The position numbers and the translations under genes are program-made. DNA of 64,000 nucleotides from Marsupella aquatica (Eukaryota; Plantae; Marchantiophyta). Below the pieces are notes generated by a model, which saw nothing but the letters and a program-made list of their open reading frames with translations, did no database searches and was not told the DNA's origin. Within the stretch, counting starts at the first letter, position 1; each line of letters starts with the position of its first letter. The stretch spans positions 10,024,283-10,088,282 of the forward strand of contig OZ316892.1 of NCBI GenBank assembly GCA_973895155.1, written 5' to 3'. Of this stretch, positions 6,578-64,000 are shown piece after piece.

Positions 6578-6644
6578 GCTGATGCAAGCGAGGAACTCTG
6601 CACGTGCGATCAAGCAGGCGAGCAGAGGTAGGCAAACAGACCCA

Positions 6645-6685
6645 GAGAGAAAGAGAGAGAACAGACACAGAGAGAGAGAGAGAGA
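6645..6685. repeat. (GA)n-rich tract, probably 5'UTR/promoter region of the receptor gene (CT-rich on the minus strand)
   Basis: AGAGAG run is visible; the promoter role is inferred from position only. Confidence 0.6.
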
Positions 6686-9569: not shown

Positions 9570-10040
9570 ATTCTAATTTCAATCATTGAACGTCTTGTCG
9601 TGGTCTCTTGTTTCCTATATTGGGGGCTGGCTAGGGGTTGTTGCAATGTCCATGCACTGACTCTCTAAGCGAAACTTGTTCTATCTTCAATGATTGAAAT
9701 TTTTGTTTATGATATCGTGTTTCCTATCTTGGGGCATGACTACTGTAGGCGTTGTTGCAGTGCTATGCACTCTAGCCAAAATTTGTTCTATTTTCAATCA
9801 TTGAACTTCTTTTCAACATCTCTTTTTCCCCTGTATTTGGGGAATGGCTAGATGGTGTTGCAGTAGACACAAAACTTGATCTTGCTTCAATCATTGCACT
9901 TGTTTTCATGGTCTTTTATTTCCTCTTGTAACTTGGGGAATGACTTGGAGTTGTTGCACTGACTTGTGCACTCTAAACGAGGCTCGTTCTATCTTCAATC
10001 ATTGAAATATCTGTTCATGGTATCTTTTTCCTTATATTGG
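9570..10040. repeat. Degenerate ~100-bp tandem repeat (about 5 units)
   Basis: TCAAT(C/G)ATTG recurs at ~9579, 9687, 9794, 9886 and 9995, with TTGGGG..TTGCA motifs between. Confidence 0.7.
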
Positions 10041-10199
10041 GGACTTATTACTCGGTGCAAGGCCTAAGGTATTTTGCTATCTTTCCATTGAAATTAGATT
10101 TGTTCAAACACAGATCCCCATCCTGGGCGTCCAAGCCAACACTGGTTAATGTGAGCTGGCAAGAATGCTCCAAAATCGTTTTTCACGTCCAGTTTGAGG

Positions 10200-14400: not shown

Positions 14401-16319
14401 AATAAGGCACAAGAGATCCATGGCAATAAGAGCACCTAGGGGAGCCTTTGTCAGATCAGCCTTGCACCGTGATGACCATAACGATGGGAGATGGCAACCT
14501 TTACCCCGAAGTTGCTGCATGACCAGAAAAGAGAAAGAGCACACAAACATAATTGAAGCACCATGCCTCCAGTCACGGATTTGCAATCCATCACCTATGA
14601 GAGAATAAAACCAATCTTGCCAGTTTGTTATCCCCCAAGGTCCTCCCCTGTAAATGCAAGCCATTGGATTCCCCATTGGAGTCAATTCATCTCCAAAATA
14701 AGCATTGATTTTATTGGGTTTCCAATGAGATCTTCGCCATTTTTTAAGGGGCTTCACAGCTTTCAAGACAAGTCTTCTTTATCTTCTCGTACATTGTGTT
14801 TGTGACAGAAGATTAAACCCAAATACCATGGATTTGGGGACGGCCCTCCAATCTATCACCTGAGAGAGAAGAACACCAATCGAACACCAATCGGGCCAAT
14901 TTGTTATCCTCAAAGGACCTTCCCTTCTACACGAGCCATTTGATTCCCGATTGAATTCAATACCTCCAAGATATGCACCTATTTGATTGAGTTTTTGATT
15001 ATGATATATTGCTTGGTTATTTCAGGGGCTTCACAGCTTCACAGAGTCTTCTTTTTTCTCTTTGATTGTGTTTGTGACGTTTAATCAATCCCTTGTTTCC
15101 TACCCCATACACTAATATTAACTGCTAATGTCTTGGCCTAACCTGCCCCCAAACACTATTTCAATTACAGCAATGGAAATATGCCCCCATTTTGTACATG
15201 GCATAAATTGACTCGACTTGAATTACCTGAGGTGCCATTTCATTGGTCTATGGCCACCTGGAAGGTCCTCATTCCCAAACCCTAGTCCTCATGCCTCCAC
15301 CCCACCCTGTGTTGGTCCAGACAATATTGGGCTTTAAAAATCTGTCATGCGTGTAATTCTGCCCACCTCTCCCCGACTTTTAGTCCAGAAATTGCACCTA
15401 AATGTTTGCACATAAATGCATTGGGATTGAACCAGAACCAGGCAGAGACTTCCCATAAGGTTCAGGATTGTACGAGAAGGAAAGTACCTCTGTTCAGGGT
15501 GAGTTAATCCCAATGCTAGCTGTGCGGTGGAAGGAAGGATTTGACAAGGCGGGCCTGATTGTTGGCCACAACAGCCAGGATAGCCATGAGATCAGGGTTT
15601 GCAGTAGAACTAATGGCGCTCTGCCAGGTGGCCATGGACCAATAAAGTGCCACCTCCAATCATCCTACTCAAGTTAAATTAACTTATAATTAAAAATTTT
15701 AGAAATTTTTTGCGGGGCGGGGGCCAAGGCAAATATTACCATTAGTTTGGGGGTTAGGCAAGTAACACACGGTTAATCAATTTCCCAGTGGTCATGGACT
15801 TTGGGATAGGTCGTTTCCTTTCAGAGCTATGTTGTTTTTGGGCCTGGAGCCACCAACGCCGTGCATAAATTGGACTACAGTAGCAGGCATGCACACAGTA
15901 CACGAACAAGAATCTCTTTGACAGGCTTTCAAAATTATTCTCTCAATGTCTGTCAAAATGCGGGGAAAATAGAATGCATGGCCTGTAACCATGAAGTCGT
16001 GGAGCTAATTACAATCGCTCACGCATAGAATGCCCATTGGCAAGCAATTCGAAAATCTGTTCATCGACTGCACCACTGCTGTGCTGCAAGTTTGGTGGAT
16101 CCCCAATCCCAAAGCTGCGAGGAGATGCCTCGCTTTTGCCCTGCAATTGCCTGAGTGCCTGCCGTTCCACCTACATGTATTCCTGACCGAGCCTGGACAA
16201 TAATGGCACCCGGGACCATATAAAAACATATATAAAGAGAATAAAATTGTCATGGCAACCTCCCAAAAACAATATAAAAATGAAAATTAAATTATGATGG
16301 CAACCTCTCCATCCTCAGT

Positions 16320-17040
16320 TGTGCCGTCACCAGAATGATAAAATAATCTTGTGCATATCCCAAACAGCAGCTTCCAAAGCTGAGTACTACCTACACCAGA
16401 AGACAGCACATAGACCCATTCAAGTAGTCCTCTGTTGTGATATCTACAGTAGATTGCAAATACGAGATGGATTTGGCAAGGGTAGAGGGCATTTTATTGT
16501 CCATCCAAGCTGGAGCTGGGAATCCTGATCGCACCGGAGCTTCCATGTTTGGAAATGCCCAATGTGAAATGATGCAATTGAATGATTACTCTGGAGCTTC
16601 CATGTCTGCAAATCTCCACCGTGAAATGATGCAATTGAATGATTACTCTGACATAATTCACAGAAAGCAACCATTTGCCAAAAATGGACCACCCAGATTC
16701 TATGCTCTTTTTGGAGGATCTATTGTAACAACCTTAGGAGTGCATGATAATAAGGGTGGCTTTACAAAGAAGTCTGCCTTGTGCTCCTTTTTCATTTACT
16801 TCTACTGTAGGCTGAATCTGGACCAAATGATGAATGGGATGGTTGCAGTTAGCTTTACAGCCGCTGGGGCCATTCAGATACACTGTCTACAGATCTTACA
16901 TGGCAATGGCAAGCAGTGGGTCCATGATGTGTACTGCTTCAAATGTTTCCAAACTTGGCTGCTTTATTGAAAGGATTAGCATTTATCATTTCAATATTCT
17001 TAGAACAAGAAGTGGCACTTCAGTTTTTTTTGGTGCTAAA
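16320..17040 (+). mobile_element. Possible decayed hAT transposase fragment
   Basis: MNGMVA...AIQIHC followed in a shifted frame by IERISIYHFNILRTR loosely resembles the hAT (M)xGxxxG...IHCxxH...IYxxF region. Also contains a ~55-bp internal duplication at 16537-16650. Confidence 0.3.
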
Positions 17041-21334: not shown

Positions 21335-21690
21335 GTACATTCTACTTCCCATGAAAGCACCCAAAATTACAACGAACAAAGTCACGAAGGCATTAAGAAT
21401 GTTTTTGAGCTGGTACCTTGGACTGTACATTCTTCTTCCCATGAAAGCACCCAAAATTACAACAAAAAAAGTCACGAAGGCATTAAGAATGTTTTTTGAG
21501 CTGGTACCTCGCAGTACATTCTTCGTCCCATGAAAGCACCCAAAATTTACAACAAAAAAAGTCACGAAGGCATTGAGAATGTTTTTTGAGCTGGTACCTA
21601 GCAGTACATTCTTCTTCCCATGAAAGCACCCAAAATTACAAAAAAATAAAATCACGAAGGCATTAAGAATGTTTTTTGAGCTGGTACCTC
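21335..21690. repeat. ~90-bp tandem repeat x4
   Basis: GTACATTCT..TCCCATGAAAGCACCCAAAATT...AAGAATGTTTTTGAGCTGGTACCT units start at 21335, 21425, 21514 and 21604. Confidence 0.95.
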
Positions 21691-22124
21691 AAAATTGCAG
21701 CTTGCTTTTAGTATACAATAAAGTCCTGTTTGGAAAGTCCTGTTTGGAGTGCATTATGGAACATAATGGTCCAACAACAGTACCTTAGTACACTTAAAAG
21801 TATACATTTTTAAATTTTCTTTAACTTTAATAAAAGTAGAGTAGAATATTCACAAAGATGATTCAAATTTTCTGGATGGGGCATAACTCTCTAGAATACT
21901 TTGGAAAATACAAAGAGAAAAATCACGACGATCATTAAGTTGTTTTATAAACATTCATCTCTTTTCTACATTGTGGTGAGTTCTCGAAGACCTCAAAGTT
22001 TACCCTTCACTTGTTCGGATTTGGCCCCCAAATCCCCCAAATCCCCAATCTCGGCAGCTCAAAACGCTTCCGACGACATGGTAGGCCATCTGTCGAACTG
22101 CTTGTGTTGTGGCAGAACAATCTA

Positions 22125-23120: not shown

Positions 23121-25779
23121 CTCTCGATTAACGTTCTATTTGGGGACTGGAATGTTTATTAATTTCGACGATGGAAAATTCGAAAATGGTGATGGGTACT
23201 TAGCAGTGCTGGTTGGTACCAGATTGAATTGGCTGAGTTAGTTGAACGTTAGTACTAAGTATACTTGAATGATCGTTGTCTATATCTTTCACGCTTGCGG
23301 AAATGTCATCATTATCACCAGTGCACCGTCAATGATTTGGGGAAACGAAGAGATTGTTCTGACTGAACATGAACAGCTTAGCCTGCATCACGCATTAGAG
23401 ACTGTTCTCCAGCATTGTCGTGAGTGTTGTTGATTAAAGCCCACGTCAGTTGCTCACATGGACAGGGACTGAAGAGATACAGCAAGCATTTTAAGCTTCC
23501 TTAGAAACGCCCGCCGACCGTTCTCACTAGTTTCAGTTGACCTAAACTACCACGCCGGTGGCTGAGTCTAACATGGGATAGAGTACAACATTCTCAGCAT
23601 TCTAGAATCCCATGCTTTTGAATCCCATGGTCGTAGCTCAGAAACGCTGCATGAGAATATGTATAGTGTGTGAGTCGCCGCTAACTTTGAAATTTCTAAG
23701 CCGAAAGGCTCCTCCAACATTAGCAGCCAATACTGACTAGAAATACAACAGCTTAAAAATTGATTGGGTATATTAATATGCTGGGAACCATCAATCCTTG
23801 AATTAGGACATGGGGGCTCTTACACAAAATCGTCTTGAACTTAATATACTCCATACAAACTGCTTTGATTACATCAGACTCAAAGGGGATTTTCTTGTTC
23901 AAAATTCCTAGATATATCGGGACCGTAGACAAGTCCTTCCAACTTGATTTCCAGAATTGAAGGCAACAAAAGCAACAATGCTAATCTCGCTTTACCACTT
24001 TCTTCATGATTCATGTTGATGTACAGTATTGCGCAACGAGTCCAGAGTGTATATATGAACTGAACAAGTGTATTTCGGGAAAAGTGAAGTTCGTCTTCAT
24101 CCAACGAGTTCTGCCGTTCCGAACAAGATAATATGGCATTCAAGATCTATCCAATGATTCGAATTTGTGGAATGGCCACAACTCTGTTGCCTAGTTCACT
24201 TAAAATTTCTTTGCAATTCGTGAATCACTCGAAGTGTATTTCAGGACAATGAAAATCTTGTCATCAATTAACCAGTTCAGCTATTTTCAACAAGGAAATG
24301 AGATCATATTTGAATTTGCGGAACCACAATCACCATAACTCTGTTTCTGAGTTAGTTGACATAAACATTTCATGTCAGTTCACGAAACCAATTGTATCAC
24401 GTAATTATCTTCAGCTACAGCACCAAACATAATAGAGTTGTTGATTGAAACGACTGCTTTTCAAGTCACCAGAGACAAATCTAGAGTTTTGCCAACCATC
24501 AAGAAAGCTAGAACGTTCAGATCGGTGCGGGGATAGGTGTTGGGTGATCTCTCCAAGACTGCCTGTCATGTACAATGCGGGTGTTTGCTAACTCCCCGGC
24601 TAACTCAATAATGGTGACATACCATGATTGAAGCTAAACTCTTAGGGCCTGCTCCTTTAGGAACCGAACCCTAGAGACAGAGGACATTGACTATCACCGC
24701 GGATCGACTGCTTTGGTCTCTGGAACAGTTAGACCACAAAGATTTCTTATTTTGAGGTCATAATTCGATAGAATTATAGAATGATAAAAGCTCTCTGCCT
24801 TTTAATCCAGCCTCCAAGGTGGACTCAGTACTCATGATTGTGTTGAGTACGAAGTATTTGGTCTAAAGTTTACATCATTAATTACAACAATGCTGGCATG
24901 TATCTATAGTCCTTCGTTATGTGGAAGTCATACGGCCCCTGAAATTCGAAAGTCGAATGCACCTTTGGGTGTGTAGAGTATACGACTCGGCCTGGATGTT
25001 TGTCGGAAGAGGCGGCAAACCTTGCATTGCAAATCAATTGGTAAGTAAGTCGTCGCCTTGGAAGACATCAACCGCCCAACAGTCCTAGCACACTTCCACT
25101 ACAGAACTTGTGATCCACACGTAGTGTAACAGGGAAATCCTATTAAGGCTATTCCTTGGCAATAATGATTAGCGAGTATCATAATGCTTTCGCAAGATGG
25201 ACCAGAGGAAGCCCACACTTGGTTACCGCGCAGAAGCAGCTCGAGCAGCCAGCACTAACTCCAGTATGTCGCAGAAGCTGTACAGTCCGAGAAGTCACAG
25301 GATAAAAACGAACTGACAAGAAGTTTCATCTCTTCGCAGGAAAGCTTTCTTAGCTCGAGGGATCGACATAATTCCACGGCAGAGCGTCGATGAGCTACAC
25401 CATATACCTCGTCTGCGGTAAGTACTGCATCTTCGCTTCCCAAATTAGTTTGCCTCACTGACCCACAATGCTAGTTCCGTGGTGACGCTCCCCAATCCAA
25501 AGTGGGAGGAAGTCTCGAGGCGGCAGATTCAACTGTAGTTCGGCCTGTGAAGTCTTTATCGCAGTTCAGGGTAAATTAATGGTGGTACCTTTTCTAGTTG
25601 CCGGACTGAGCTAGAATGATAGAACGAACGAACCCGATTCACAGACCTAAGATTGGTTGCGGGATCACGTCACAACAAAAGCTCTACACCTCTAAACGAT
25701 GGGTCGCCACATCAAAATATGATAGACGAGTTCAATACCAACCCACAAAAGAGTCTGTGAAGTCCAAGATGTCCTACAG

Positions 25780-26320
25780 AGAAAGGATGTCATGACGCTC
25801 AAGATGTAGTTCACAGAAAAGATGTCATGTCACCCAAGATGTGATTAAGAGAAAAGATGTCATTGAGACAAAAGACGTCACCCAATATGTCGTTAAGAGA
25901 AAAGATGTCATGTCGTGATGTCATTGAGACAAAAGACGTCACTACGTAGCCCAAGATGTCATTAACAGATGTTATTAAGTACAAAATTGTTGTTAAGTAC
26001 AAAAAGGTCCATAAGTAAGTGATGTCTGTTAGCATATATGTTATGAAATCTCTTTTGCACAAAAGATGTTGTTGCCGTAAATACTTCATTGCATTTACAA
26101 TATTGTTAAATAAAAGATAGTAAAATATGCGATTGCTCAAAGATGTCGTTGTGCAAAAGATGTAGTTTACTAAAAGATATTGTTCGGCGAAAGACGTCAA
26201 TGCGTAATAGATGACGTTGTGCTAAGGATGTAGTTGAAAAATGTCATGGTGCGCAATATATCTTTGTTAGAAAGATCTCATTGCGTAAAAACATTGTTGA
26301 GTGAAAGATGTCATGACACA
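25780..26320. repeat. Degenerate AAAGATGTC minisatellite (~18-20-bp units)
   Basis: Repeated AAAAGA(T/C)GT(C/T) words; similar to the arrays at 47500-48130 and 63317-64000. Confidence 0.8.
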
Positions 26321-29589: not shown

Positions 29590-29910
29590 GACAAAAAAAC
29601 AGGGATGGGCAAAGATAGACAAAACGGACATGGACTGTAAATAAGGACAAAAGGGTGGACAAAAAATGCGGATAGGGCAAAGATGAACAATGGCTCTAAA
29701 TAAGGTTAACACTGACAGTTGGACAAAAATAGGGATGGGGACTAAAATTTAGAGTCATTGACCATCCCTGTTTTTTGTCCAACTGTCAGTGTTAACCTTA
29801 TTTAGAGTCATTGTTCATCTTTGCCCTATCTGCGTTGGTTGTCCACCCTTTTGTCCTTATTTAGAGTCCATGTCTGTTTTGTCTATCTTTGCCCATCCCT
29901 GTTTTTTGGT
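29590..29910. repeat. Long near-perfect inverted repeat (foldback), ~145-bp arms, ~23-nt spacer
   Basis: 29590-29738 is the reverse complement of 29762-29910 with about ten differences. Confidence 0.92.
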
Positions 29911-30769
29911 CAATCTCTAAATGGGGACTAAATGGAAAACCAGGGTGAAAAATAAGCAAGGATGGAGCAAAGACGTTCAAAGACTCTAAATGAGTACTAC
30001 AGCGTGGGTGAAAAATAAGCAAGGATGGGGCAAAGATGTTCAATGACTCTAAATGAGGACTAAAGGGAAAGCCAGGGTGAAAATAGAAAAATAAACAACG
30101 ATGGGACAACGATAAATGTGAAATATCATACTTACAATTATTTTTGTCTTATTATTTTTGTGTCTTCAATCTCTACTTACTAGAAATAGCACATGCTTCT
30201 ATTTGCAAGATTTTGTTTTGTCGTCAATTTCTATTTACAGGAAAAAGCATAGAATTTTTTATAAAAGATTTCTTTGGGTCGGCAATCTCTGTTTATATGC
30301 GGATAAGAGTTTTTTTTGGGTTTTCAATCTCTATTGGGGTATTGAAAGGGAGAAAGAGTGAAGTCGATCCTCAAGCTGTCCCGGACGAACGAGAGAGAGC
30401 TTGCTCGGATCGTGTCGCTGATCGATTGATCGCTCACTGGTTTCACGTACTCAGTATCTCCTGGACGGGAGATCTCCGCATTATCGAATTCTTCGGTGCG
30501 AGGCGGAGGTGTCCCTCATGACTATAAAGCTGTCACTGACTCCACTCATTTCCATTACTTCCACTCTTTCAGTCGTCGAAGCTGTTCTGGCTTTCGCTCT
30601 CGAGCATTACAGACAATTGCAAGAGTGAGTATAGAGTATTAGAGTTAGTGACAGTCTGCCAAGCCAGGCAGAATTACTTCCACTCTTTCAATCGGCGAAG
30701 CTGTAGTAGAATCAGTGTTTCAATCGCCGAAGCGATTCTGTCACTGGCGTGAGGACGAGCGCGCTCAGG

Positions 30770-31588
30770 ATGTCGACGGAAGGTATTAGAGCTGCTGCTC
30801 CTTCGGGGAGGCAGTATGGGAGGTTCACCAGGTACGTGATGATTTTTTGCATCATCGCAGCCAGCAGAGGTCTCATCTTCGGATACGGCAGCGGAATCTC
30901 AGGTCTGTGTTACCCCTCTCTCTCATGAAACCTCTGCACACAGAACGCTTTCGTGAGTGCGGAATTGCAAGCTTTGCAAACTGACTGTGCTTCATACTTC
31001 GAGCGCTGCAATTTCGTAAAGCATGAGTAGTTCGTCTGTGGCGTTCCCTGGAGCTCAATTGGTAACTTTGGGATTAAGAGTTCTTTGACAGGAATGGGTC
31101 TGATGAGTGTTGATGAATATGATTCGTTGGTCGATGAACAGGCGGAGTCATGTCTATGGGCAAGCTCGTGCAGAAGATTTTCCCGAAAGTTGACGGTTAT
31201 CCAGTTCTCCACCTGTTCACCTCCTCGCTTTACCTTGCGGGGCTGGTTGCCACCGTTGTTGGTGCTAAGACGACGCATACCTTGGGCCCGCGCCCATCCC
31301 TGGTTCTCGCTGGCGTCTTATTATTGATTGGAGGCATCCTGAGTGCTGCTGCCCAGGGCTTGGCAATGCTCACCATTGGCCGCATCTTACTCGGTCTGGG
31401 CATGGGTTTCGCCTGCCAGGTCGGTTCAGATTTGACCAATTCTCATCACATCATGGCTGCGCCATTTTTTTCAGTACAGGCATGAGCGTTTACGGAATTG
31501 TATTTGAAATAATTCTCTAAATTTGCGTGACATGCCGTTCGCGTGTGTGCAGGCTGTGCCTCTTTACTTGTCCACATCGAATATATAG
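30770..31588 (+). pseudogene. STP: Truncated sugar transport protein (STP, MFS sugar porter) gene
   Basis: Exons 30770-30902, 31142-31419, 31553-31588. Translation: YVMIFCIIAASRGLIFGYGSGISG|GVMSM..IFPKV..LFTSSLYLAGLVA..MLTIGRILLGLGMGFACQ|AVPLYLS, then homology is lost and TAG follows. Intron positions are typical of STP genes. Confidence 0.88.
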
Positions 31589-34032: not shown

Positions 34033-34971
34033 TCAAACCAAACCAACCATCTTCAACGAGTCAGCCCACAACCGATCCTCCTTCTCCTCGTCGTAAGCCA
34101 ACTTCCCATATCCCCGTTCATGAAGCGGATCCCCCTCCTTCATCGGCGGGGAGACCTGCACATCCTCCAAGTACTTGCCACCCTTCCCCTCCCACTCCTT
34201 TCCCACTGCAGCCCAGACAGTCGATGCAGCCCCCTGAGCCGTGCTCTTCAGAGAAGCGAGTAACCAGGGCTGCAACGACCAGAGAGCCAGCTGCTCTTCC
34301 GACAAATACTTCAGTTGTGGCGTGATGATGCCACCCGGGTGCACGCTCGTGGCGTGGAGCCCCTGCGGCCCAAAATGCCGATCGATGTAAATCGCCATGT
34401 AGATGTTTGCCATCTTGCTCTGCGCGAATGCCTGGAAGGGGTTGTACTCTCTTTTCTTGAAGTTAGAGTCGTCGAAACGGACCTCGCCCGTTTTGACCGA
34501 GGAGCCCGTGACGACGCGTGAGTTGAACTCCGGGGTGGACGAGCTGAGCAAACGGGGCTTCAGGAGGTTGAAGAGCAGGAAATGGGCGAGGTGATTGGTG
34601 GCAAATTGCGTCTCGAATCCGTCCACAGTCGTGGTACCTGGGGCGGGGATGGCCATCACACCCGCATTACAGACAAGGACGTTGATCACATGGCCGGTTC
34701 TGGAGTGGAACTCCGCTGCTGCGGCTCGAACGCTCTCGAGGGACGAGAGGTCAATGTAGAGGAGCTCCACGCGGCCGGGCTCGATGTCCGCGAGTACCTT
34801 CTTGCCCTTCTCAAGATCTCGTACCCCGCAGTACACCGTTGGTCCTGTGGCGGCGATCGCTCGAGCTGTCTCGATGCCGAGTCCGGAAGAGCAGCCGGTG
34901 ATTAGGAAGACTTTGTTCTTCAATTTGCCCTCCAGCCCTTCGTCCTCAACGATCTGAATGGCAGGCGTCCC
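34033..34971 (-). pseudogene. Intronless short-chain dehydrogenase/reductase (retinol-DH/WWOX-like, fungal-type), probably non-functional
   Basis: TGCSSGLG Rossmann motif, CNAGVM, FETQFATNHLAHF, HPGGI, QGAA..VWAA. The expected catalytic YxxxK reads FAQSK. The frame is open back to TGA 34972-34974 with no ATG before the Rossmann motif. GC-rich relative to the flanks. Confidence 0.85.
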
Positions 34972-36858: not shown

Positions 36859-36996
36859 TACTACTAATGTAGTTGATTTAAAAAAATGAACATGGTTGTA
36901 TGTGACATAATGGCCATGAGGTTATTTCTTACCAAAATCTAAACTTTTTTAAAGGCAAATGTACACTTTATACTTGCCCAAATGTCATGATTGTAA

Positions 36997-38820
36997 GTGA
37001 GAAGCTGTAATACGACTCCCGCTCTTGAGCTGGGGCTCAATTTGTGGAGGGATAGCATCGTCTTAGCACCTCACATCAAGAATCGCTTGTTGTATAGAAT
37101 TCTTGACCTTGTGCATCGGGAACGAACTGCAGGTGAGCTTATTAATCGAGTGTTGATGCGAAATGTCATCAAAATGTTCATGGATCTTGGGCCAACTATG
37201 TTTGACGAGGACTTTGAGAAGCCTTTCCTGATAGCCACGGCGGATCACAACGGCTCATTGAACCCTGAACCCTTTGGGTTATTAAAAGAGGGCAGAACGG
37301 AGGACAAGTGTAGAATTACAGCGGGGCTATTGACTATCTTCAAGGCCAAACTCAGTTTAGAAGTACTTCTGTCTTTTCAGAGTAATGGTGAAGGTTCTCG
37401 CGGAGTTGGAGAAGTCCGGCCTCTTGCCCATGCTAGTGGATGATCAGTATGACGATTTGCTGTACTTGTATACCTATCGACGTTTTGGCAAAGGATTGCA
37501 AATTCTTCAGGAGGTTCTGAGGGACCATCTGCGAGAAGGGGGCAAACAACTTGTCATGGATCCAGAAGTATGGAAACACTCTGTGCGTTTGTACAAGCGC
37601 TACTTGATGAGAAGGACAAATCTAACCACGTCATCCGGTTGTATTTTCGGAACGATGCGAGATTTCAGAACGCTTTGAACCCGTCCTTCACATACTTCAA
37701 CATGAAGGTGCTGGAATTCCTATCTATCTCCGTAAATGAGAAATTCGGTAAAGGTAACATGAAGACAAAGGCGGAAGTTGAGATATATTGCTGGAAAAGT
37801 CATGAGGTTCTTCCGTTATTTGCAACGGAAGGATGTATTTGAGTGATACTATCAACAGCATCTGCGAAACGGAGTCCTGTCAGGCAGATACAGATACTAG
37901 CTAGACGCTTCATTCTCAAGTTGAAGACAGAATGTGGAGACCATTTCACATCTGATAAGATCTTCGTCATTTTAACTGATATCAGGACAGTATATATTTT
38001 GTATACCCAGTGTGCTTTCGATGTCATGGTCTCGTCTACCGAATCTAGTGAAGAACTTCCCGTGCTGTCTGTACGTGAAGGTGCTCGATCACACGTGATT
38101 AATGGCCAGTGCAAATTTCGTACTCAGTGTAATCTACCAACGGACCTCCTCCCTATCTGCAAAAAGTTCAAGAATCATTATTTGTCTACAAACATGGGTC
38201 GGGAGTTTGTATGGCACTCGACTTGGGAACTGCAGATCTGACAGTCACCTTTGGGAAGGGACAACAACGGCAGCTGAATGTTTCAACATATCAAATGTGT
38301 GTCCTCTCGCTTTTCGACTGCTGACACGTTACATTTCTGAGAAATTAAACTCACAAATCTACCGACAAACGGCAATCATGAGGATCTAAAGAGGACTCTC
38401 CAAGCACTAGCATGTATGAGAGGAACAACTGTCCTGTTAAAGGAGCCAATGAGCCAGAATGTTAGTGGCTAGGATTGTTTTCCTTATCAATGATAAGTTT
38501 TTGAGAAATCGTACAAAATTACGATTGGTGCAATAGTCGCTCAGACGATAATGGACCAGAAAGGCAAGAACCCCACCAGAAAGTGCACGAAAATAGGAAG
38601 GTTCAGATAGATACCAGGGATAGATTCAGCGGTGATCAGAATCATGAAGGCTAAGCTCAGTTTGGATCACAAGAACCTTTTGAAGGAGGTCACAAAGCAG
38701 TTACAGGCCCTATTTCTTCCCAATCCAGCAGCCATTGAAGAGCACATCGAGTCTCTTATAGACCGTGGTTTTCTGTTCAGAGGGATGAAGCTGACAGGGA
38801 CCGCTATATATCTCTAGCTT
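36997..38820 (+). pseudogene. CUL3: Cullin-3 pseudogene (5'-truncated, multiple frameshifts and stops)
   Basis: ELGLNLWRD..RLL..ILDLVHRERT.GELINR.LMRNVIKMFMDLG..EDFEKPFL; KLKTECG..FTS; CNLP..; C-terminal neddylation domain IRIMK...LDH..L..EVTKQLQ..FLPNP..I..IESLIDR.FL. These pieces lie in several frames. Confidence 0.92.
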
Positions 38821-41707: not shown

Positions 41708-42976
41708 ATAATTGAGTTACACTTTTCATTATAACCTACCAGTTCTATCATGAGGGAGGAAGAGCTCATGCTAAAATCCTGGGTGTGTCTTGGTTGGCAT
41801 AATTGGCTGGCTGCCTGCATGCAATAAAATATAAATATATAGTCTAGCAAATATGTGCGCTAAGAAGGAAAACCTAATAAGATGTGTATATAGTAAGCTC
41901 TCAATCATTTCAAGGGAATATTATTGCCCATATGTACAAGTTGTAATGGGATATTAATTGATTAAAGGCCTAAGTTACTAACAGAAGTTTCATCATGCCC
42001 ATCCAAATATGCATTGTGCATTCTTCTATATAAAGCACCAAATAAATCACAAAGCTAGAGAAAACTCACAAATGACATTAAGATTATACTAATGTCTTGC
42101 TTACAAAGCATTGCAAATCATAATGAAAAGAGCTTTAACTCAAACCTGGTTACAAGACTGGGCTTTACAAGACAAGTTTGTAATTCCTTATAGTAGCCTT
42201 TTATCCAATTGACCATTGCAGGTTTCATTCTAGTATTAATTGCCTTGGTCTAACCTTTTGTAATTGCAGTTTATTTTTGTTTCCCGTTTTGTTTTCATGC
42301 TTCCACTTGTATGCACATGCATGCAGCTTTGCATTTAATTGTCACCAATGAGCTCCTTGTCTTTGGTTAATGTTCACTTTATTCCTCGGCTGGATTTTTA
42401 AAGGTTTTTATATAAATTACAGGAAGTTGCTTTTTAGGATTTTTATTGAGATTTACAAATATTTTAATGAAAATTAAATCAAGTTGAGAAATGTTTTTAG
42501 TCTTAAATTTGTAAAAATAATAAACACCAAACTTTATATATGACCCATTAAATTTTAAAAAGTGGAAAATCAAACTTTTTTCAAGTTTTAATTTTTTTAT
42601 AGCCAACTTTTCAGTTCATACAAAAATGTACACCCCTGCCTATTATACAATTTGGTTGCATACTAGGGGCCAGAATCAAATGCTGAAAATGGCATGCATC
42701 TGAGCATCCGAAGTTACATCTGGTCCCTCACTAAGAGCAATGTAATGAGATATACCCGGAGATATATCATTGAGTCCAAACACAATCAAGTGACAGGAAA
42801 ATACAGCTTTACGTTTTTTCATTTTTAGGGAAATAATTTATTATTATTTATATTGAAAGTTTTTCAAATATTGCAATGTTTTTTTCCAGTTTAAATTTAA
42901 ATAATTCTTATATGAATCACTTTAATTAATTTAAATTATTTCTTCATCTTGGGCAGATGAGGGCAAGCTAAGGGGC

Positions 42977-43550
42977 CTCGGGGGTTTCACTTTCACAAAA
43001 ATGGCATATCACGTGCGACGAAGGATAAGGTCATTTTATTGGTTCTAAGGGAAGACTTAAGAATTTTTGTAAAAGAACAATAGGGTCTTTTTAATTCAAT
43101 TTTGAGACTTATAAGAACATTAGGGTCTTTTTAATCCAATTTTTGGAATATTCCAAGAATATTCCAACTTTATAGGGGTTAAAAAAAAATTCTTACATTT
43201 TAGGGGGTCCAAGGCTTGAAAACGTCGCAGGTGATGGGGAGGTCCCCATATAGGTCAATTGCAAGCTTGAGGGGAGCAAAAAGGATGTTCAATTTCTCCA
43301 CCAAAAGGATTCCAGTCCTTCCCAATTTACAAGGGGTGGACAAGGTGCTACACCAAATGGCTAGGATTAGTTTGTTGAGATTGGATGGTGAGATCTTGCA
43401 TGTCAAGTCTTTGGAAGTGTGTCCAGGTTTTTAGGAAGTCCCAATCTTCTTGGAAGTGTGCACAACAATTTATTCTCCTTTTTGAGCTAATCCTTTTTGC
43501 GTCCTTTTGCCCCCCTCAATCTTGCAATTGACCTATAGTGAGACCCCGAG
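42977..43550. mobile_element. hAT-type MITE (~295 bp) carrying a nested MITE
   Basis: TIRs CTCGGGGGTTTCACT / AGTGAGACCCCGAG; perfect 8-bp TSD TAAGGGGC (42969-42976, 43551-43558). Confidence 0.9.
43253..43533. mobile_element. Nested MITE with ~32-bp TIRs
   Basis: GGTCAATTGCAAGCTTGAGGGGAGCAAAAAGGA / TCCTTTTGCCCCCCTCAATCTTGCAATTGACC, flanked by TATA on both sides. Confidence 0.85.
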
Positions 43551-45634: not shown

Positions 45635-45931
45635 CTCGGGGATCTCACTATATGGATGTCTCCCTATCACCTGCGATGTTTTTAGGCCTCGGACCCCTTA
45701 AAATGTAAAAAACATAAATTAGTCTTCAACCCCTATAAAGTTGGAATATTTTTGGAATATTTCAAAAATTTAGTTAGAAGGACCCTGATGTTCTTATGAG
45801 TCTTAAAATATGATTTAAAAGACCCTCTTGTTTTTCTTAGAAAATTCTTAAGTCTTCCCTTTGGACCAATAAAATGACCCTATACTTTGTCACATGTGAT
45901 GTGCCATTTTTGTGGAAGTGAAACCCCCAAG
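45635..45931. mobile_element. hAT-type MITE (297 bp), same family as 42977
   Basis: CTCGGGGATCTCACT...AGTGAAACCCCCAAG; perfect 8-bp TSD TGCTGAAG (45627-45634, 45932-45939). Confidence 0.92.
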
Positions 45932-47483: not shown

Positions 47484-47494
47484 GGTGCAAGAAA

Positions 47495-48130
47495 AATCTT
47501 GAGGTGAAAATAGATGTTGAAGTGAGAAAAGCAGTTGAAGTGAGAAAAAGATGTTAGGGAGAGAAAAGATGTCAATGACAGAAAAGATGTCAAGGTGAAC
47601 AAAGATGTTGATGCCATAAAAAGAGATGTCAAGCTAAGGAAAATAAGTCAAGCAAAAAATATGTCAAGTAGAGAAAAGATGTCAATGATTGTGAGAAAAA
47701 TATATATGGAAAATATGTCGAGGGTGAGGGAATAATGGTGTAGTGAGATAAAAATGTGAAGGTGAGAAAAAGGTCAGATGTCGAGGTGCAAACAGATGTC
47801 AATTCAATGAGAAAAAGAGATGTTGAGGTGAGGCAAAGAAGAGAAGGTGCACAACAATCATGGCGAGATGAGAAAAGATGTAAAGACGAGGAAAAGATGT
47901 GAGTCAAGGGTGAGGAAAAGATATATATTGGTGTGATAAAGATGTCAATGTGAGAAAGATGTGGAGGTGAGGAAAAAATGTTGAGTCACGTGAAAATATA
48001 TATTGAGAAGAGAAACAAAAATCAAGGACCTAAAAGATGTCAAGGGTGAGAAAATAACTGCCATGATGAGATAAAGATGTCAATGTGAGGGAAAATGACA
48101 AGCTGAGATTGAAAAAGATGTCAAGGCAAG
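47495..48130. repeat. TGAGAAAAGATGTC-type minisatellite
   Basis: Many degenerate ~18-20-bp units. Confidence 0.85.
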
Positions 48131-56200: not shown

Positions 56201-58049
56201 ACTGAAGGGTTTCTGAATGAGTCAAAGTGACCAGTAATAGCATGATCACAGGTTACTTAGACACCCATTTCTCTCAACGTGCAAGGAATCACGGATGACC
56301 CGCAAAAAAAGAACAAATTGGATTCACCAATGAAGCATTCACCCACGAGTATTAGGATCGAGTTCCAATTCGCCCCACCAGAACTTGAATTTAGGGCTAT
56401 GACATGTACTATGTTGAGGAGTACTCATACCACAGTTCCCGGTTCCTCACGACAAATCAACATGGCCTCGGACACATGGCATGCCTTGCATTGGTCTCAC
56501 CTTTTGCCCGCCTCTCGGGATGCACCTCGGGGTACGTTCACGTCGGGAGGAAGCTGATTCGATACTCGGTGCTGGATACTAGCGTAAGTTGAGTTGTCCC
56601 TCGGATTATGGCCTGCAAGCAAGCAGAAGTAACAAATAAATTGACTTCTGTCACCACTTCCCTCCCACCTCACCAGTCCCCGAGTTTAAACTATCCGGCA
56701 ATACAAAGAATGACAAGCCGTCGTAAAAATTCTACGTACAGCAGGAAGACAGCAGTGACAAGAACATGCACCTTGCTAGTGCTGTTCAGCCATCAAACGG
56801 GTACGAAATATTCCGAATACTGATATCGACACTGAGTTTTCTAAAGCTATCTTATGGTTGGCTCCCGAAACGAGACAGTAAAGACTGTTCCAGATGACTA
56901 TTCTTGTACGTATTAGGAGCCGTCAAAAAGTACTCAATAAAATCTACCCTTTCAAACGGAGATAGACTAATGCTATCAAGAATCACAGGAGCTGAAAGAT
57001 ATCAACCGTCCAGATTTTGAGGATTGTCATCTCGATTTGTCGAGCAAGAGGCGGAAGTGGCGGTCGCTAAGCCCCGTTTTGAGAAATCTCAGCCAATACG
57101 TAAACGAGGGAACGTCAAGATAAGGTCATATCCTTCCGTCAATTAGTATGATATCACAGTAGTATCCGGGGCTCCAACGGACTGGGGTGAACTGTTGTGT
57201 CGTCCCCTATTGTCACGACATTGATGGATCCGTTGGCCAACAAACTGGTTTTCTCGCAGAGAACCAAGAATATATTCCTATGCTTGACGCACCTTGCCAT
57301 AAGTTATGCAGAAGATTAAGGAAGTGTGGGGCACATCATGGTGTCTCCTAAGAATTTGATGAGCCGCATCAGTAATTTGAACACAAGGAAATACAAGAGA
57401 GAGAACATCTACATCTGTTCGAGTCCCCCCTTCATTTATCCATTGCAACTGAAGCTCCAGACGAACGAACAAAGGACAGGATTACAGTACATGACAATCC
57501 ATGGCAAACGATCACGATTCCGGCCTCAGTGGTGCTGCCTGCCTTTGCTTCACATACAGAATTCATTATATACTAGGCGTGCCCTAGAGTGGTCCTGTTG
57601 TTGACTTCCGAATCCCAAGCTAAGAGTTTGCAGTCTTCCAGCTGGACAACATCCTAAGGAGCTCGCCAAGAAGCTGTCTTACTACTGGAATTGCCCACCA
57701 TAGCTTTGGAGTGCTGAATCGATGCTTACACTGACGACTCTCGCTAAACTCAGAAGCTGCACTGCGTCGTCCTTCGAAAAAGCTCCAGGAGATTCAGACG
57801 GAAGCAACACCCACAGAGCAAATCCACAAGCTGAACGAGATCGAGTACAATATGATGGCACCCCGAACAATGTTTCACGAGTGCTGCCCAAGTCAGCTGG
57901 ACTGAACATCAATCAAAGCTGGTCACTGCCTACTTCACTATCCTAGAAGGTAAGACCGGAAGGTTTGCGAGCAAATGTGGGGGGCTCAGACATGTACACA
58001 AGGTGTTGGAAATGAACCACACTCGAACGAAGATGGATACAGCCACAAA

Positions 58050-58120
58050 GGGCCTGTAGCTCAGTGGTAGAGCACTATGATGTACACGGGAGGTCCTAGG
58101 TTCAATTCCTAGCCGGTCCA
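58050..58120 (+). promoter_or_regulatory. tRNA-like Pol III type-2 promoter module in the 5' LTR
   Basis: A box TAGCTCAGTGG, B box GGTTCAATTCC; D-stem GCTC/GAGC, T-stem CTAGG/CCTAG, acceptor GGGCCTG/CCGGTCC-A; anticodon arm 1 nt short and mispaired. Confidence 0.85.
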
Positions 58121-58244
58121 TGCTGTTGAAAGTTCCAACATGGTATCAGAGCCAAAGAAAAGGAGTTTCCCTTGTAGCGAGTGCGGCTCAAGGGTGGGTG
58201 TTGGAAATGAACCACACTCGAACGAAGATGGATACAGCCACAAA

Positions 58245-58315
58245 GGGCCTGTAGCTCAGTGGTAGAGCACTATGATGTACACGGGAGGTCCTAGGTTCAA
58301 TTCCTAGCCGGTCCA
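58245..58315 (+). promoter_or_regulatory. Identical tRNA-like module in the 3' LTR
   Basis: Exact copy of 58050-58120. Confidence 0.85.
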
Positions 58316-59277
58316 TGCTGTTGAAAGTTCCAACACAAGGCACATCTGAGCCCCCCTGGAAATGTTGATGAAATAGCGCACTCTTTTGAAGAGTTGGAGC
58401 TAGCTCAAGCTATCAATCGCTGAGGAATTGAAAGTGTTAAAAAGTCGCAGTGTGGAAACAACTCCGTCAGGTATATAGGTTCACACAGGGAAGGCGCCCA
58501 CAGCCTACAGACTACAGCTCTGTAGCCCTGGGCTGGTCAGTCCTTCAATTACTGAAGCATAATGATGGATTTGTAACCTTTTGTCCGTTTGTAAGCAGAA
58601 TCATGGTTTGACTCATAAAATCCTAATGAATGATCGCTCACGCCAAACATCTTCCTTTCCGCCGAACTTTAAAGTACTGTAGTTACACTGAGATCTTGGT
58701 GCAGCTAAAGTTGACATTAGCACAATTAGCTGAAGGATGTAATAAAGCAGGATCCAGAGCTACAATGGATGTGATTTGCATAAAACCCAAAAGGACATGC
58801 TTGCACTGTGCTACATAACCCTGACATTTGGGCGACGTTTCTCAAGTGAGTTTTTCTTTAAAATACAAAGAAGGCAATGCCCACCGCTCATTTAAACACC
58901 AATACAATCGTCCCATGACTTTGCATGCCGCTTACACAAGAAACAAGGAACTCAGGCTGCACGATAGGAATGTGCAATTGTGCACCTCTCCATGAATGAA
59001 AAAAAATTTGGGAAAAGTACAATTGTACTCGAAGGGGACAGGGGAACAAACTAAAATGAATTAACAGTCGCCTACCTACAGTATTCTACCTACAATAAAA
59101 GGAGATCGGATTTATGCAGGAGTAGCATTTAGTGGCCCCCAAAGTTAGTGATCTGTCTATGTACTACGCTTCCTTGGTGATCATGGTCTACTGGCAACTC
59201 CAGATCAGAATTTCAGAATCTGAAAATGTGTAAATCCTTAACGAGAAAAAATGCAAAAGCATAGATTTAAAAGAAAG

Positions 59278-59631: not shown

Positions 59632-59772
59632 TTTTTTTTGTCTTCAACGGAAATGAAGACACCACCCACCCACACACATATACCTAAACCCTGTGTGTGG
59701 AGGGGGATTGAACCTGGGACCTTTCACCTCCAAGCCCAATCCTATCCCCTAGCCAGACCTAAGCCAATTAGT
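59632..59772 (-). mobile_element. tRNA-derived SINE
   Basis: Minus strand: A-box-like TGGCTTAGGTCTGG, B box GGTTCAATCCC, short A8 tail; decayed TSD-like AGCTATCTCATTC / AGCTACATCACTC. Confidence 0.6.
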
Positions 59773-60060
59773 AAGCTACATCACTCTACTACTTTCCTAC
59801 ATTACCTTAATCAGAAAATTATTAACAATATGTTATGTTATCATATTTTATTTAAACCTATTAAATAATGATTTGAGATAAAAATGATGATAATAAATGT
59901 ACTGCATACAAATGCAAGGGGAGCCATCTTGCAGGGGGTGTGCAAGACACATAGATGCGGGCCAAAGGGTGTTCGTCATGAAACCCTCCAAACCTTCTTA
60001 CTATATATGATAACATGATTGCTTCAGGCTTGGTGCTGACCTCTTATTGGGACTGGCAGG

Positions 60061-61042: not shown

Positions 61043-63316
61043 TCTCACATTCTAGGGTGTGTGAGGCCTAAAAACAAAGAGCAGTACACAGTTGGCATTT
61101 ACAACATTTTCTGCTTTTTGCCAGCATCTTTGGGCATGACAAGGGCTGGAAATTCAAGGGCCAATGACATGCCAGTTGAATGTCAGCTCATAGAGTTTTG
61201 AGATAATATGAGCTGTCTTTGGCTCTGATCAGAATTCTGCTTAGGTTTCTTTGCAGAAAGCTAGCCAAGCTCAAAGGTTACTTAAAAGGTCAAAGACAGA
61301 GTGAGTTAATATCAAAATTTATGGCTTATATAGGAAGGATAGGTACAGTCCAGAGCCTCTAAATTGGAAGGTCCTAAACTGTCAAAACAACAGAAAGGAA
61401 TCCAATGGCTTCCTTTTGCCAATTAAAGCCTTAAGACGGGTATCCATTGAATTTTGAACGGGTGGCGTTTCGGGTTAGTAAAGCACTCATTCGGGGCCAT
61501 GAAAAAATGAATTAAAATATTCACAGATACTCATAAAAAAGACTGTTCCCTTGGTATGTAAATTATTTAATTAATAAGGTCGGACAGCATTTCTTTGGTT
61601 TGGGGTACAACATTTTCTCATGATCTACAGTAGAGAAGTAGATACTTTTTCAGGTAAATCACGCATTTAATGAGCCCCAAAGTTTCTGAAATTACTCGGT
61701 GGGAATCTTTCTTTTTTCCTTTTTCTTGGTGGGACTCTTTTTGCATCATCCGAGTGTCTTCTTCTAAAAATAAAAAAATAATAAATAATAAATAAATAAA
61801 AAATTCTTCTTCTAACGGTTACGATAGCCTTGGAGAGAAACTATTGACCATCGCTCCAAGGCACTCGTATGATTGCCTACAAGTATGATTGTACTACTTG
61901 TAGAGACGGTGTAAATACACAAAAATTTAGAAGGTAAGTTAAAAGGAGATATATATTTAATAGACCCCCTACTCAAAAAATAAATTATTTGTTCAACCCC
62001 CCTAAACGTTTTTGCCCCCAAGAGACCCCCTTTTAATGAACAGTAGGGTTTGTTCTAGTTCGGGTCCTTCTAAAGCGAGAATATGGGTTACTAGGACCAA
62101 ACTTTGTCAATAGTGACTACACAAATTTGCTCCGTTTCACCATAGACTGTGTCCGATAGAATTGCAGGCCGTGAAGGAGTCTGGTCCTCGTCGACGGCGT
62201 TATTTCAACTAGGCGCTCAACCATGAGGTTGGGATTATTGGACTGCATTCCTTGTTTTGGCAATCCTCCCAGCAGGTTGCTTTGAGGCTTGAGCACGGGT
62301 ACAGTAAAGTGAGGTACCGTTGGACTGGCATATGGAAAATGTAAACTAAAAAAACCTGAAGACAATTTTCATCATGACTTCCCAAACCACCCATCTTAGT
62401 CATTTGCCTCTTCCCCCAAACTGCACCTTGTCTGCAAAAACTACTCTTTTCCAAACAAATGCCAAGTGTGACCTGAAGACAATGTCCACAATGTCTTCCC
62501 AAACCACTTGGGTAACTCAATGTATATTTTGGGATACCACGTGCAATCCTACTCTAATATAAATAACCCTATTTAATAAAAAAAACTTCTATAAATATTG
62601 ATGATTTTCACTATTAACTACTTATTTCACTTTGTAAAATGTATAATTATATAATTAGAGAATACTCTATTTATAAATTTGAGTTCATAAGACCTACTTT
62701 AACCCTCGCTTTAACTTCCTATGCTTTTTACAAGTTTAGCTATTTCCATCCAACATACCTATTTTGGATTGCACATGGTTCCTACATTTTTTGGTAGTCA
62801 ACTCCCTGAGCACTAGTGTCAACCATTTGGCTGCCTCAACCCAACTGGCATTATATTTGCAAAATTACTCATGGCTAAAAGCAGTGTCAAGTGTGACATG
62901 AAGACAATATCCACAATGACTTCCAAAACCCCTGGTGGGGTTTAGGATATTTCAAATCCCTAAGTTCCAAGTTCTTGTGCTTTGGTTGCAATGCACTCAT
63001 CCTCATGTCTATTAGTCTACCATCAAATTGCTTCATGATGCAGAATTTAGGATTTGGCCAAATCTTACAAGTTCTACCTTGAAGGTATTTTTCATTTTTC
63101 ATTTGTATTTCAACAAAATGGTTCACCGTGAAATGTTGGCCTGGTTTCCCGGGATCCTCACTTCTTTTCTTCCAACTCATCACACGCAAATAGGTATAGT
63201 GTTTTTACTGGGTTTAGTAAAAGTCTTTAAAATTTTTGTGGGAGGAACATTAGGGATATTTTAATCCAATTTTGAGAATTACTATAATCACTAGCCCGAT
63301 GCCCGTGCATTGTACG

Positions 63317-64000
63317 AAAGATGTCGAGTGATAAAAAGATGTTGAGGTGATAAAAAGGTGTGGAGTGATAAAAAGATGTCAGATGATAAAAAGATGTTGA
63401 GGTGATAAAAGGATGTCAAGCGATAAAAATATGTCGAGTGATAAAAAGAAGTCGAGTGCTCAGGGGTCTCACTATATGGATGCCTCCCCATCACCTGCAA
63501 CGTTAGGCCTCTGACCCCTAAAATGTAAGAAAAAAAATATTTTTCAACCCCTCTAAAGTTGAAATATTCTTGGAATATTCCAAAAAATTGGTTATAAGGA
63601 CCCTAATGTTCTTATAAGTCTCAAAATTTTATTTAAAAGACCCTATTGTCCTTCTCAAAAAATTCTTAAGTCTTCCCTTTGAATCAATAAAATGACCCTA
63701 TGCTTCATCGCACGTGATGGGCCATTTTTGTGGAAGTGAAACCCCCAAGGTTGAGTGATAGAAAGAAGTCAAGTGATAAAGATGTCGAGGTGATAAAAAG
63801 AAGTCAAGTGATAAAAGATGTTGAGTGATAAAAAGATGCCGAGTGATAAAGACATGTTGAGGTGATAAAAAGATGTCGAGTGATAAAAACATGTTGAGGT
63901 GATAAAAATATATCAAGGTGAGAAAAGATGTCAAGGTGAGAACAATATCTCAAAGTGATAAAAAGATGTAAAGGTGATATTAAAAGATGTCGAGATGATA
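63317..64000. repeat. TGATAAAAAGATGT(C/T)GAG minisatellite (17-19-bp units)
   Basis: Regular units at 63317-63458 and 63750-64000. Confidence 0.93.
63459..63749. mobile_element. hAT-type MITE inserted in the minisatellite
   Basis: CTCAGGGGTCTCACT...AGTGAAACCCCCAAG; 8-bp TSD GTCGAGTG/GTTGAGTG. Confidence 0.88.

What the first reader, a model, noticed from the sequence alone, without database searches (positions are those of the whole stretch)
58004..58335. Very young 332-bp TRIM whose LTRs carry a tRNA-derived Pol III promoter
Seen: two 100% identical 137-bp LTRs, an iMet PBS, a PPT, a 58-bp interior and a perfect CAAGG TSD. More than half of each LTR is a 71-nt tRNA-like cloverleaf with intact A/B boxes and D, T and acceptor stems but a broken anticodon arm. 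The plus strand has no T4 run anywhere in the element (the first is at 58384). Established: Cassandra TRIMs carry 5S sequence in their LTRs, and as I recall tRNA-bearing TRIMs have been reported as Helenus. Inference: Pol III initiates in the 5' LTR and reads through PBS and PPT into the 3' LTR, making this a SINE/LTR hybrid mobilised by an iMet-primed partner. Identical LTRs suggest recent or ongoing activity. The family may be new for this lineage.
Basis: partly seen in the sequence, partly recalled or inferred. Interest (0 to 1): 0.85.

Follow-up and report, generated by a model that had tools for sequence, protein, structure and literature searches.

The report
Liverwort tRNA-bearing mini retrotransposon (Helenus)
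A 332-base, gene-less jumping element with a tRNA look-alike in each end repeat sits at many sites in what is most likely a liverwort genome and is absent from this spot in a close relative; it is a new family of the already described Helenus type, likely copied into RNA by polymerase III, and I found no earlier report of this type from a bryophyte.

Summary
The element is real: identical 137-bp LTRs, 58-bp interior, Met-type PBS, PPT, 5-bp TSD and a tRNA-like unit (Rfam 46 bits) without an anticodon arm. Window genes place the host among liverworts, nearer Calypogeia than Marchantia. Public runs show a dispersed family, with at least 24 different right flanks in one run. One contig of a close relative lacks exactly the element plus one TSD copy. 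Across copies the D and T arms carry no common variant (0 of 35 sites, against 14 of 102 elsewhere; p 0.013). It meets every testable defining feature of Helenus (Kojima 2024), whose only plant family is from Selaginella. That family is the closest I saw (50 of 57 letters outside the anticodon arm, by eye), only just above true tRNAs (41-49). Unlike it and 28 of 32 fungal families read, this family has no T4 after the tRNA unit. Pol III transcription and the Copia helper remain inferred: no RNA run and no genome were available. The scan has noted Helenus-type elements before in other genomes, none in a bryophyte. Verdict: new member of a known kind.

The parts
57999..58003 (+). left target-site duplication (5 bp)
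   Evidence: empty-site joint in X3 skips 337 = element + one TSD
58004..58140 (+). 5' LTR, 137 bp, with an 8-bp terminal inverted repeat
58004..58049 (+). predicted U3 (46 bp); first 27 bp show no common variant, the rest is variable; CAA at 58046-58048 just before tRNA +1
   Evidence: CAA role from PMC13437025; the U3 assignment is inferred
58050..58120 (+). tRNA-like unit of the 5' LTR (predicted R region and internal Pol III promoter)
   Evidence: Rfam RF00005 46.1 bits
58057..58067 (+). A box (TRGCY..YGG type) within an intact D arm
   Evidence: sequence; motif definition in PMC10886601
58075..58088 (+). degenerate anticodon arm, no stem, variable across copies
58100..58108 (+). B box within an intact 5-bp T arm (58096-58112); no common variant across copies
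58121..58140 (+). predicted U5 (20 bp); T-rich but no T4
58141..58152 (+). primer-binding site, Met type, directly after the LTR; same 12-mer as the Cassandra PBS
   Evidence: PMC7215508; that it pairs with initiator tRNA-Met is recalled
58190..58198 (+). polypurine tract (one T at 58195; most family depth has A)
58199..58335 (+). 3' LTR, identical to the 5' LTR
58245..58315 (+). tRNA-like unit of the 3' LTR
58336..58340 (+). right target-site duplication (5 bp)
58384..58387 (+). first downstream T4, in host DNA; predicted nearest Pol III stop for this copy
   Evidence: T4 as minimum terminator from PMC13437025

Best explanation
This is a recently inserted copy of a dispersed, non-coding LTR mini-retrotransposon (a Helenus-type TRIM) in what is likely a liverwort genome, whose tRNA-like unit likely serves as an internal RNA polymerase III promoter and whose RNA is likely copied and integrated by a tRNA-Met-primed Copia helper. 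Shown: the anatomy, many insertion sites, an empty site in a close relative, and invariant D and T arms across copies. Inferred steps: (1) TFIIIC binds the A and B boxes of the 5' LTR and Pol III starts at about 58046-58050. (2) With no T4 in the family, it reads through U5, PBS, interior, PPT and the whole 3' LTR into host DNA, stopping at the next T run (58384 here). (3) A helper's Gag packages the ~340-nt RNA and tRNA-Met primes at the PBS. (4) The ~90-nt strong-stop DNA (U5 plus tRNA unit) jumps to the same sequence in the 3' LTR, so extra flank RNA does no harm and the 46-bp U3 is rebuilt from the 3' LTR. (5) The PPT primes the second strand, and integrase makes a 5-bp TSD. The promoter lies inside R, so every daughter copy keeps it.
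For: Anatomy. Dispersed family: contigs leaving the LTR at exactly 58140 into unlike flanks number 24 (X1), 6 (X2), 30 (X4) and 15 (X5), agreement 0.37-0.47. Summed depth in X1 is 1,857-4,105 over the element against 14.5-16.8 in the flanks (not a copy number). Empty site: one X3 contig joins 57995 to 58333, skipping 337. Older copies exist: a full copy with 41 differences in X1, whose 3' LTR has the same offset and differences in X4. Conservation: D+T arms 0 of 35 sites variable in two or more runs against 14 of 102 (p 0.013); the anticodon arm has 4 of 14. Related copies keep the 5' tip and the tRNA unit but have a different U3 middle (loose ends at 58028/58223 and 58048-58057). No self-priming match (best 6 of 12). 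[quoted passage not shown] Kojima links 5-bp-TSD fungal Helenus to Copia. Host: the ANF-receptor-like gene groups with Calypogeia at 99/99, excluding Marchantia; the SDR gene groups with Calypogeia at SH-aLRT 96 in a quick tree; cullin-3 best hits are Riccia and Calypogeia.
Against: No transcript evidence. The strict A+B boxes alone are not significantly conserved (0 of 20 against 14 of 117, p 0.10), and the first 27 bp of the LTR are just as invariant. True tRNA genes laid at 80% likeness could inflate conservation in the arms, and the arms hold few CG/CHG sites (2 of 35, against 17 of 102). The variant table comes from assembled contigs, not phased copies, and the four runs are not independent. 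The empty site rests on one contig with only 24 letters on its short side, in a flank that is repetitive in that run. No RT or integrase domain was found among the window ORFs scanned. Most chromoviruses also use tRNA-Met, so a Gypsy helper is possible. Identical 137-bp LTRs only bound the age to under about 0.8-4 million years under assumed, recalled rates.
Confidence: 0.72

Rival explanations
1. An ordinary Pol II-driven TRIM in which the tRNA unit is kept for its RNA shape (packaging, strand transfer or end trimming by tRNA-processing nucleases), or as a passenger, not as a promoter.
For: Whole D and T arms, including stem positions outside the boxes, are invariant, while the strict boxes alone are not significant. 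Against the Selaginella family, 6 stem differences include two double changes that keep pairing and one wobble turned Watson-Crick (by eye). Six random changes give two or more such double changes in 0.5-1% of simulations.
Against: U3 is only 46 bp with no TATA-like box (sequence). Common acceptor-stem variants within the family are uncompensated CG/CHG transitions (58114-58116). The predicted 338-nt RNA forms the 5' acceptor stem at probability about 0.5 and the 3' one at about 0.01. Cutting both units like tRNAs would destroy the template (inference).
Confidence: 0.15
2. Same mechanism, but the liverwort family arose independently of the Selaginella family by capturing a different tRNA gene or SINE head; the likeness reflects general tRNA conservation.
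For: True tRNAs picked by a pattern built from the shared letters reach 41-49 of 57 (28 loci), against 50 of 57 for Helenus-1_SMo. U3, anticodon arm and interior do not align by eye. The PBS likeness only reflects the host tRNA. Kojima favours multiple origins. Stems from two different tRNA genes covary trivially.
Against: None of the 28 tRNAs has the acceptor ends (positions 1-4 with 69-73) that the two plant families share. In Data S1 the variable-loop/T-stem 9-mer occurs in only 2 places (Selaginella and Amylostereum). The LTR-terminal 8-mer occurs 3 times and is terminal only in Selaginella. An oyster Helenus with the same A-box motif reaches only 40 of 57 (by eye). Layout and size are nearly the same (332 against 325 bp).
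Confidence: 0.4
3. The identical LTRs are an assembly collapse and the copy is older than it looks.
For: The family is high-copy, so short-read assembly could homogenise repeats; no listed contig spans the whole locus.
Against: Both junction contigs in X1 match with 0 differences 27-29 bp into each LTR. The copy carries minority letters rather than the family majority (for example 58078, 58159, 58195). The TSD is perfect and the site is empty in X3.
Confidence: 0.07

Closest known systems
Helenus-1_SMo, Selaginella moellendorffii (Kojima 2024, PMC10886601; whole main text read, supplement searched and parts 4 and 5 of 11 read)
   Same: TRIM of 325 bp (this one 332), 5-bp TSD, PBS for the 3' end of tRNA-Met directly after the LTR, full-length tRNA-like unit near the LTR 3' end with a scrambled anticodon arm; 50 of 57 letters alike outside that arm, same last 8 LTR letters, both with G3:U70 and A73 (by eye).
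   Different: Host is a liverwort, not a lycophyte. LTR 137 against 120 bp, interior 58 against 85 bp; U3, anticodon arm and interior do not align. No T4 in U5 here, whereas SMo has one. Not the same family.
Helenus-1_AmAr, Amylostereum areolatum, and other fungal Helenus (same paper)
   Same: TGTTG..CAACA ends, 5-bp TSD, TGG-starting PBS with no spacer; 27 of 32 letters alike over the 3' half of the tRNA unit (by eye).
   Different: Longer LTR (209 bp), two extra D-loop letters, A3-U70 instead of G3:U70. 28 of the 32 fungal LTRs I read carry a T4 after the unit (by eye); most fungal families prime from a half-tRNA.
Cassandra (PMC7215508 passages; Kalendar 2008 not held, known here through Kojima's text)
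   Same: Plant TRIM with a small-RNA-derived Pol III promoter in each LTR and the identical 12-nt PBS; the only TRIMp3 with shown Pol III transcripts, according to Kojima.
   Different: Carries 5S (A and C boxes), not a tRNA unit; 565-860 bp; reported from vascular plants.
tRNA-derived SINEs (SINE2)
   Same: tRNA-type internal promoter, decayed anticodon arm, predicted termination in flanking DNA.
   Different: This element has LTRs, PBS, PPT and a fixed 5-bp TSD, and no body or tail for a LINE partner.

Membership tests
Helenus | non-coding TRIM under 1000 bp with two LTRs | tested here: met
   332 bp, two 137-bp LTRs; frames crossing it are 55-73 aa stop to stop and were not scanned against Pfam
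Helenus | tRNA-like sequence within the LTRs | tested here: met
   Rfam tRNA 46.1 bits in each LTR
Helenus | box A with TRGCY and YGG, box B with GGTTC | tested here: met
   sequence 58057-58067 and 58099-58103; definition
Helenus | PBS and PPT between the LTRs | tested here: met
   58141-58152 and 58190-58198
Helenus | 5-bp TSD in plant and fungal families | tested here: met
   empty site in X3
Helenus | unit unlikely to be a working tRNA and not complementary to the PBS | tested here: met
   no anticodon stem; ARAGORN default finds none; best PBS complement 6 of 12; tRNAscan-SE not available
Helenus | conservation concentrated around the promoter boxes | tested here: inconclusive
   D+T arms 0 of 35 against 14 of 102, p 0.013; strict boxes 0 of 20 against 14 of 117, p 0.10
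Helenus | interspersed repeat family | tested here: met
   24, 6, 30 and 15 contigs with unlike flanks at 58140 in X1, X2, X4, X5
TRIMp3 | transcription by RNA polymerase III | not testable with these tools
   no RNA holder listed; also unvalidated for Helenus itself
Helenus (Copia-dependent branch) | autonomous Copia helper sharing PBS or internal sequence | not testable with these tools
   no genome held; no RT or integrase hit among the window ORFs scanned
a named Helenus family (exact match) | identity to a published consensus | tested here: not met
   this PBS 12-mer and the unit's 5' 11-mer occur 0 times in Data S1 (line breaks can hide a motif); Repbase and Dfam not available
Cassandra / Ajax | 5S rRNA-derived sequence in the LTR | tested here: not met
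   no 5S hit up to E 1 on the locus or E 5 on the window
SINE2 | head, body and tail, no LTRs, variable TSD | tested here: not met
   LTR-PBS-PPT-LTR anatomy; the unit spans tRNA 1-73 only

The most novel reading that the evidence does not exclude
The liverwort, Selaginella and Amylostereum elements are one lineage of tRNA-Met-primed, Copia-dependent Helenus that either predates the split of bryophytes and vascular plants, making it among the oldest parasite-on-parasite elements known, or crossed between agaricomycete fungi and early land plants. It arose by capture of a whole tRNA gene with its terminator rather than by a SINE insertion, its tRNA fold and not only its boxes stays under selection, and the liverwort branch dropped the leaky T4 to become a pure read-through unit.
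Probability: 0.2. Interest if true: 0.7.

Novelty: new member of a known kind. Interest (0 to 1): 0.42.

Why it matters
It gives Helenus a second plant lineage and, as far as my searches reach, a first bryophyte TRIM record (Gao 2016 found no TRIM in Physcomitrella). Pol III transcription of Helenus has not been validated. A 332-bp, terminator-less, recently mobile family makes that directly testable with one 5' RACE. Its likeness to the Selaginella and Amylostereum families poses a clear question of deep ancestry, horizontal transfer or convergence. In practice, such families inflate tRNA gene counts and offer insertion markers between close liverwort relatives. It is not a new kind of element.

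Tried and rejected
No whole genome is held, so there was no copy census and no helper search. No RNA holder listed. A metagenome scan for B box plus LTR end plus PBS gave 0 loci. A second scan for the tRNA core gave 28 loci, all ordinary tRNAs (16 Ile, 8 Thr, 3 Ala, 1 Leu), none with a PBS. The parent isotype is undetermined. An alanine origin from G3:U70 and A73 (identity rule recalled) was considered; it is weakened because U70 is shared with Amylostereum, which has A3, and because Ile tRNAs match as well. 'No T4' as proof of read-through was rejected (74% of shuffles also lack it). Folding energy gives no support (z 0.06 for the unit, 0.52 for the LTR, -1.26 for the interior). Self-priming was rejected. 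There is no second copy in the window. Pfam scans of 202 frames (11 + 61 + 130) found no transposon domain at a curated cutoff; frames under 70 aa were mostly not scanned. My first guess of a Selaginella host was dropped. ARAGORN at relaxed thresholds gave only noise. The scan's look-up by sequence returned three unrelated prokaryotic or phage tRNA notes; by relatives and by genome it returned nothing. Kalendar 2008 was not held, and PMC13578239 was not read. The careful SDR tree did not finish, so the quick tree is cited. Comparisons with published consensus sequences were made by eye only, so no alignment score or tree supports them.

Full report
Observation. The LTRs at 58004-58140 and 58199-58335 are identical over 137 bp, the interior is 58 bp, and the 5-bp TSD is perfect. 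The first + strand T4 is at 58384. The termini form an 8-bp perfect inverted repeat. Rfam's tRNA model scores 46.1 bits on 58050-58120 and 58245-58315, covering the whole model except the anticodon arm; ARAGORN at default calls nothing. Fifteen of 16 acceptor, D and T pairs are standard; the exception is T6:C67. A T4-free sequence is expected from composition alone (74% of 5000 shuffles), and the unit folds no better than shuffles (z 0.06).

Host. No genome is held. Three window genes point to a liverwort. An eight-exon ANF-receptor-like gene groups with Calypogeia and one unnamed protein at 99/99 and excludes Marchantia (11 rows, only one exon of the window used). An SDR groups with four Calypogeia paralogues (quick tree, SH-aLRT 96; 19 of 120 listed hits used). 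Cullin-3 fragments hit Riccia and Calypogeia first. Identities of 67-95% per exon argue against Calypogeia fissa itself. A Jungermanniopsida host is likely but rests on thin sampling.

Family and age. Five runs hold the stretch, from two organism labels and three studies; none is on record as RNA. Contigs that leave the LTR exactly at 58140 into mutually unlike sequence number 24 in X1, 6 in X2 (57% of the run read), 30 in X4 and 15 in X5. Summed depth over the element in X1 is over 100 times that of the flanks; the tool warns that this is no copy number. Both junctions of this copy are on single-copy X1 contigs with no difference. One X3 contig (organism B) joins the two flanks and skips 337 bp, which is the element plus one TSD. 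It has 167 letters on the right with one difference but only 24 on the left. X4 has no cover at 58383-58439, and X2 has none at either junction flank, so they say nothing. An older full copy with 41 differences exists in X1, and its 3' LTR appears at the same offset with the same 14 differences in X4. The family therefore predates the A/B split, while this copy is likely younger or polymorphic. Identical LTRs alone allow up to about 0.8-4 million years under three assumed, recalled rates.

Conservation. From the complete 40-row variant table (variants at 8% or more in any of four runs), sites variable in two or more runs were: D arm 0 of 18, T arm 0 of 17, anticodon arm 4 of 14, acceptor 2 of 15, U5 3 of 20, inner U3 5 of 19, first 27 bp 0 of 27. 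D+T arms against the rest of the LTR give p 0.013 (0.0175 in X1 alone). The strict boxes give p 0.10. Caveats: the data are contigs rather than phased copies, the runs are related, true tRNAs may be laid on the arms, and the arms hold few methylatable sites.

Mechanism. The best reading is a Pol III-driven TRIM (confidence 0.72). The promoter lies in the predicted R region, a CAA sits at -4 to -2, and U3 is only 46 bp. CAA is less frequent outside angiosperms (PMC13437025 section 7), so it is weak support. With no T4, the transcript would run into host DNA. That would not hinder the first strand transfer, because the strong-stop DNA can pair inside the 3' LTR (inference from the standard LTR cycle described). 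The PBS equals the Cassandra 12-mer (PMC7215508 passages). Most plant Copia lineages and most chromoviruses prime from the 3' end of tRNA-Met; Bryco uses a half-tRNA and Tcn1 self-primes (PMC6317226 passages). Copia is the likelier helper by analogy with fungal Helenus, but no helper was seen.

Comparison. I read the whole main text of Kojima 2024, searched its supplement three times and read parts 4 and 5 of 11. All testable defining features of Helenus are met, one of them inconclusively. The only plant family, Helenus-1_SMo, is closest: by eye 23 of 25 and 27 of 32 letters on either side of the anticodon arm, the same last eight LTR letters, and a similar size. Of its seven differences, six lie in stems: two double changes, one wobble to Watson-Crick, and one break. 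The control tempers this. Twenty-eight true tRNAs picked by a pattern made from the shared letters reach 41-49 of 57, though none has the same acceptor ends. The fungal Helenus-1_AmAr also matches 27 of 32 in the 3' half. Common descent is thus plausible but unproven (about even odds), and vertical descent cannot be told from fungus-plant transfer. One difference from relatives is clear: 28 of 32 fungal LTRs and SMo have a T4 after the unit, while this family has none, and no listed variant at 8% or more creates one. The unit's exact 1-73 span, and the terminator in its relatives, fit capture of a tRNA gene better than the SINE insertion proposed in the paper (inference).

Novelty. Searches for Helenus with TRIM and tRNA, Helenus with retrotransposon, TRIMp3, and TRIM with liverwort, Marchantia or bryophyte found no bryophyte record. 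Two citing papers mention Helenus only in passing (passages); a third (PMC10946416) was seen only in the listings. Gao 2016 found no TRIM in Physcomitrella and does not mention liverworts (passages). Repbase, Dfam and subscription journals were not searchable. The scan's own notes list Helenus-type elements in fungi, a diatom, clubroot and an annelid, and none for liverwort or moss; I did not test those notes. Verdict: a real, young, well-supported new family of a known kind in a new host lineage. Interest 0.42.

Noticed in passing
window 57300-58001: The left flank is single-copy in organism A (depth 16.8 in X1, about 35 in X2) but matches a sequence at depth about 200-16,800 in organism B (X3, X4), whose single-copy contigs lie at about 22-46. 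It may be a repeat burst in B or a sex-chromosome repeat; unexplained. No Pfam hit at cutoff in its frames.
   Followed up: partly
window 57979-57990 and 58345-58356: The element landed in the loop of a perfect 12-bp inverted repeat, which marks roughly the end of the flank repeat seen in organism B.
   Followed up: no
window 34033-34971 (-): Intronless short-chain dehydrogenase whose relatives are Calypogeia paralogues (66-69%) and then ascomycete fungi (about 52-60%): a likely fungus-to-liverwort gene transfer (no outgroup test).
   Followed up: partly
window 36970-38781 (+): Cullin-3 copy broken by stops, 39% identical to Calypogeia cullin-3 over 637 aligned residues in one piece: likely a processed pseudogene.
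   Followed up: partly
window 136-4459 (-): Eight-exon gene for a ~500-aa protein with only the ANF-receptor ligand-binding domain, with relatives in liverworts, Sphagnum and ferns among the 10 hits.
   Followed up: partly
window 59700-59780 (-): A B-box-like stretch matching the element's T arm at 17 of 19, with an A-box-like motif upstream: possibly a decayed tRNA-derived SINE; no Rfam hit up to E 5.
   Followed up: partly
runs X1, X2, X4 laid on 58004-58198: Family derivatives: a copy skipping 58025-58088 (no A box) seen in three runs, and copies with a different U3 middle, so at least two subfamilies.
   Followed up: no
Data S1 of PMC10886601, parts 4-5: 28 of 32 fungal Helenus LTRs, and the Selaginella one, carry a T4 (rarely T5) after the tRNA unit; the paper's text does not discuss it. 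It suggests capture of a whole tRNA gene and a leaky terminator. The fish families read lack it (by eye).
   Followed up: partly
window 29590-29911: 140-bp arms, 94% complementary, 42 nt apart: a long hairpin, MITE-like or a miRNA-like precursor; only sub-threshold Rfam miRNA hits.
   Followed up: no
window 25765-26010, 47491-48106, 63298-63982; 21335-21719: Dispersed arrays of an 18-19-nt purine-rich unit linked to a ~220-bp repeat (42976-43202, 45709-45931, 63527-63750), and a 90-bp tandem array.
   Followed up: no
window 31138-31482 (+): Sugar-transporter (MFS) exon.
   Followed up: no
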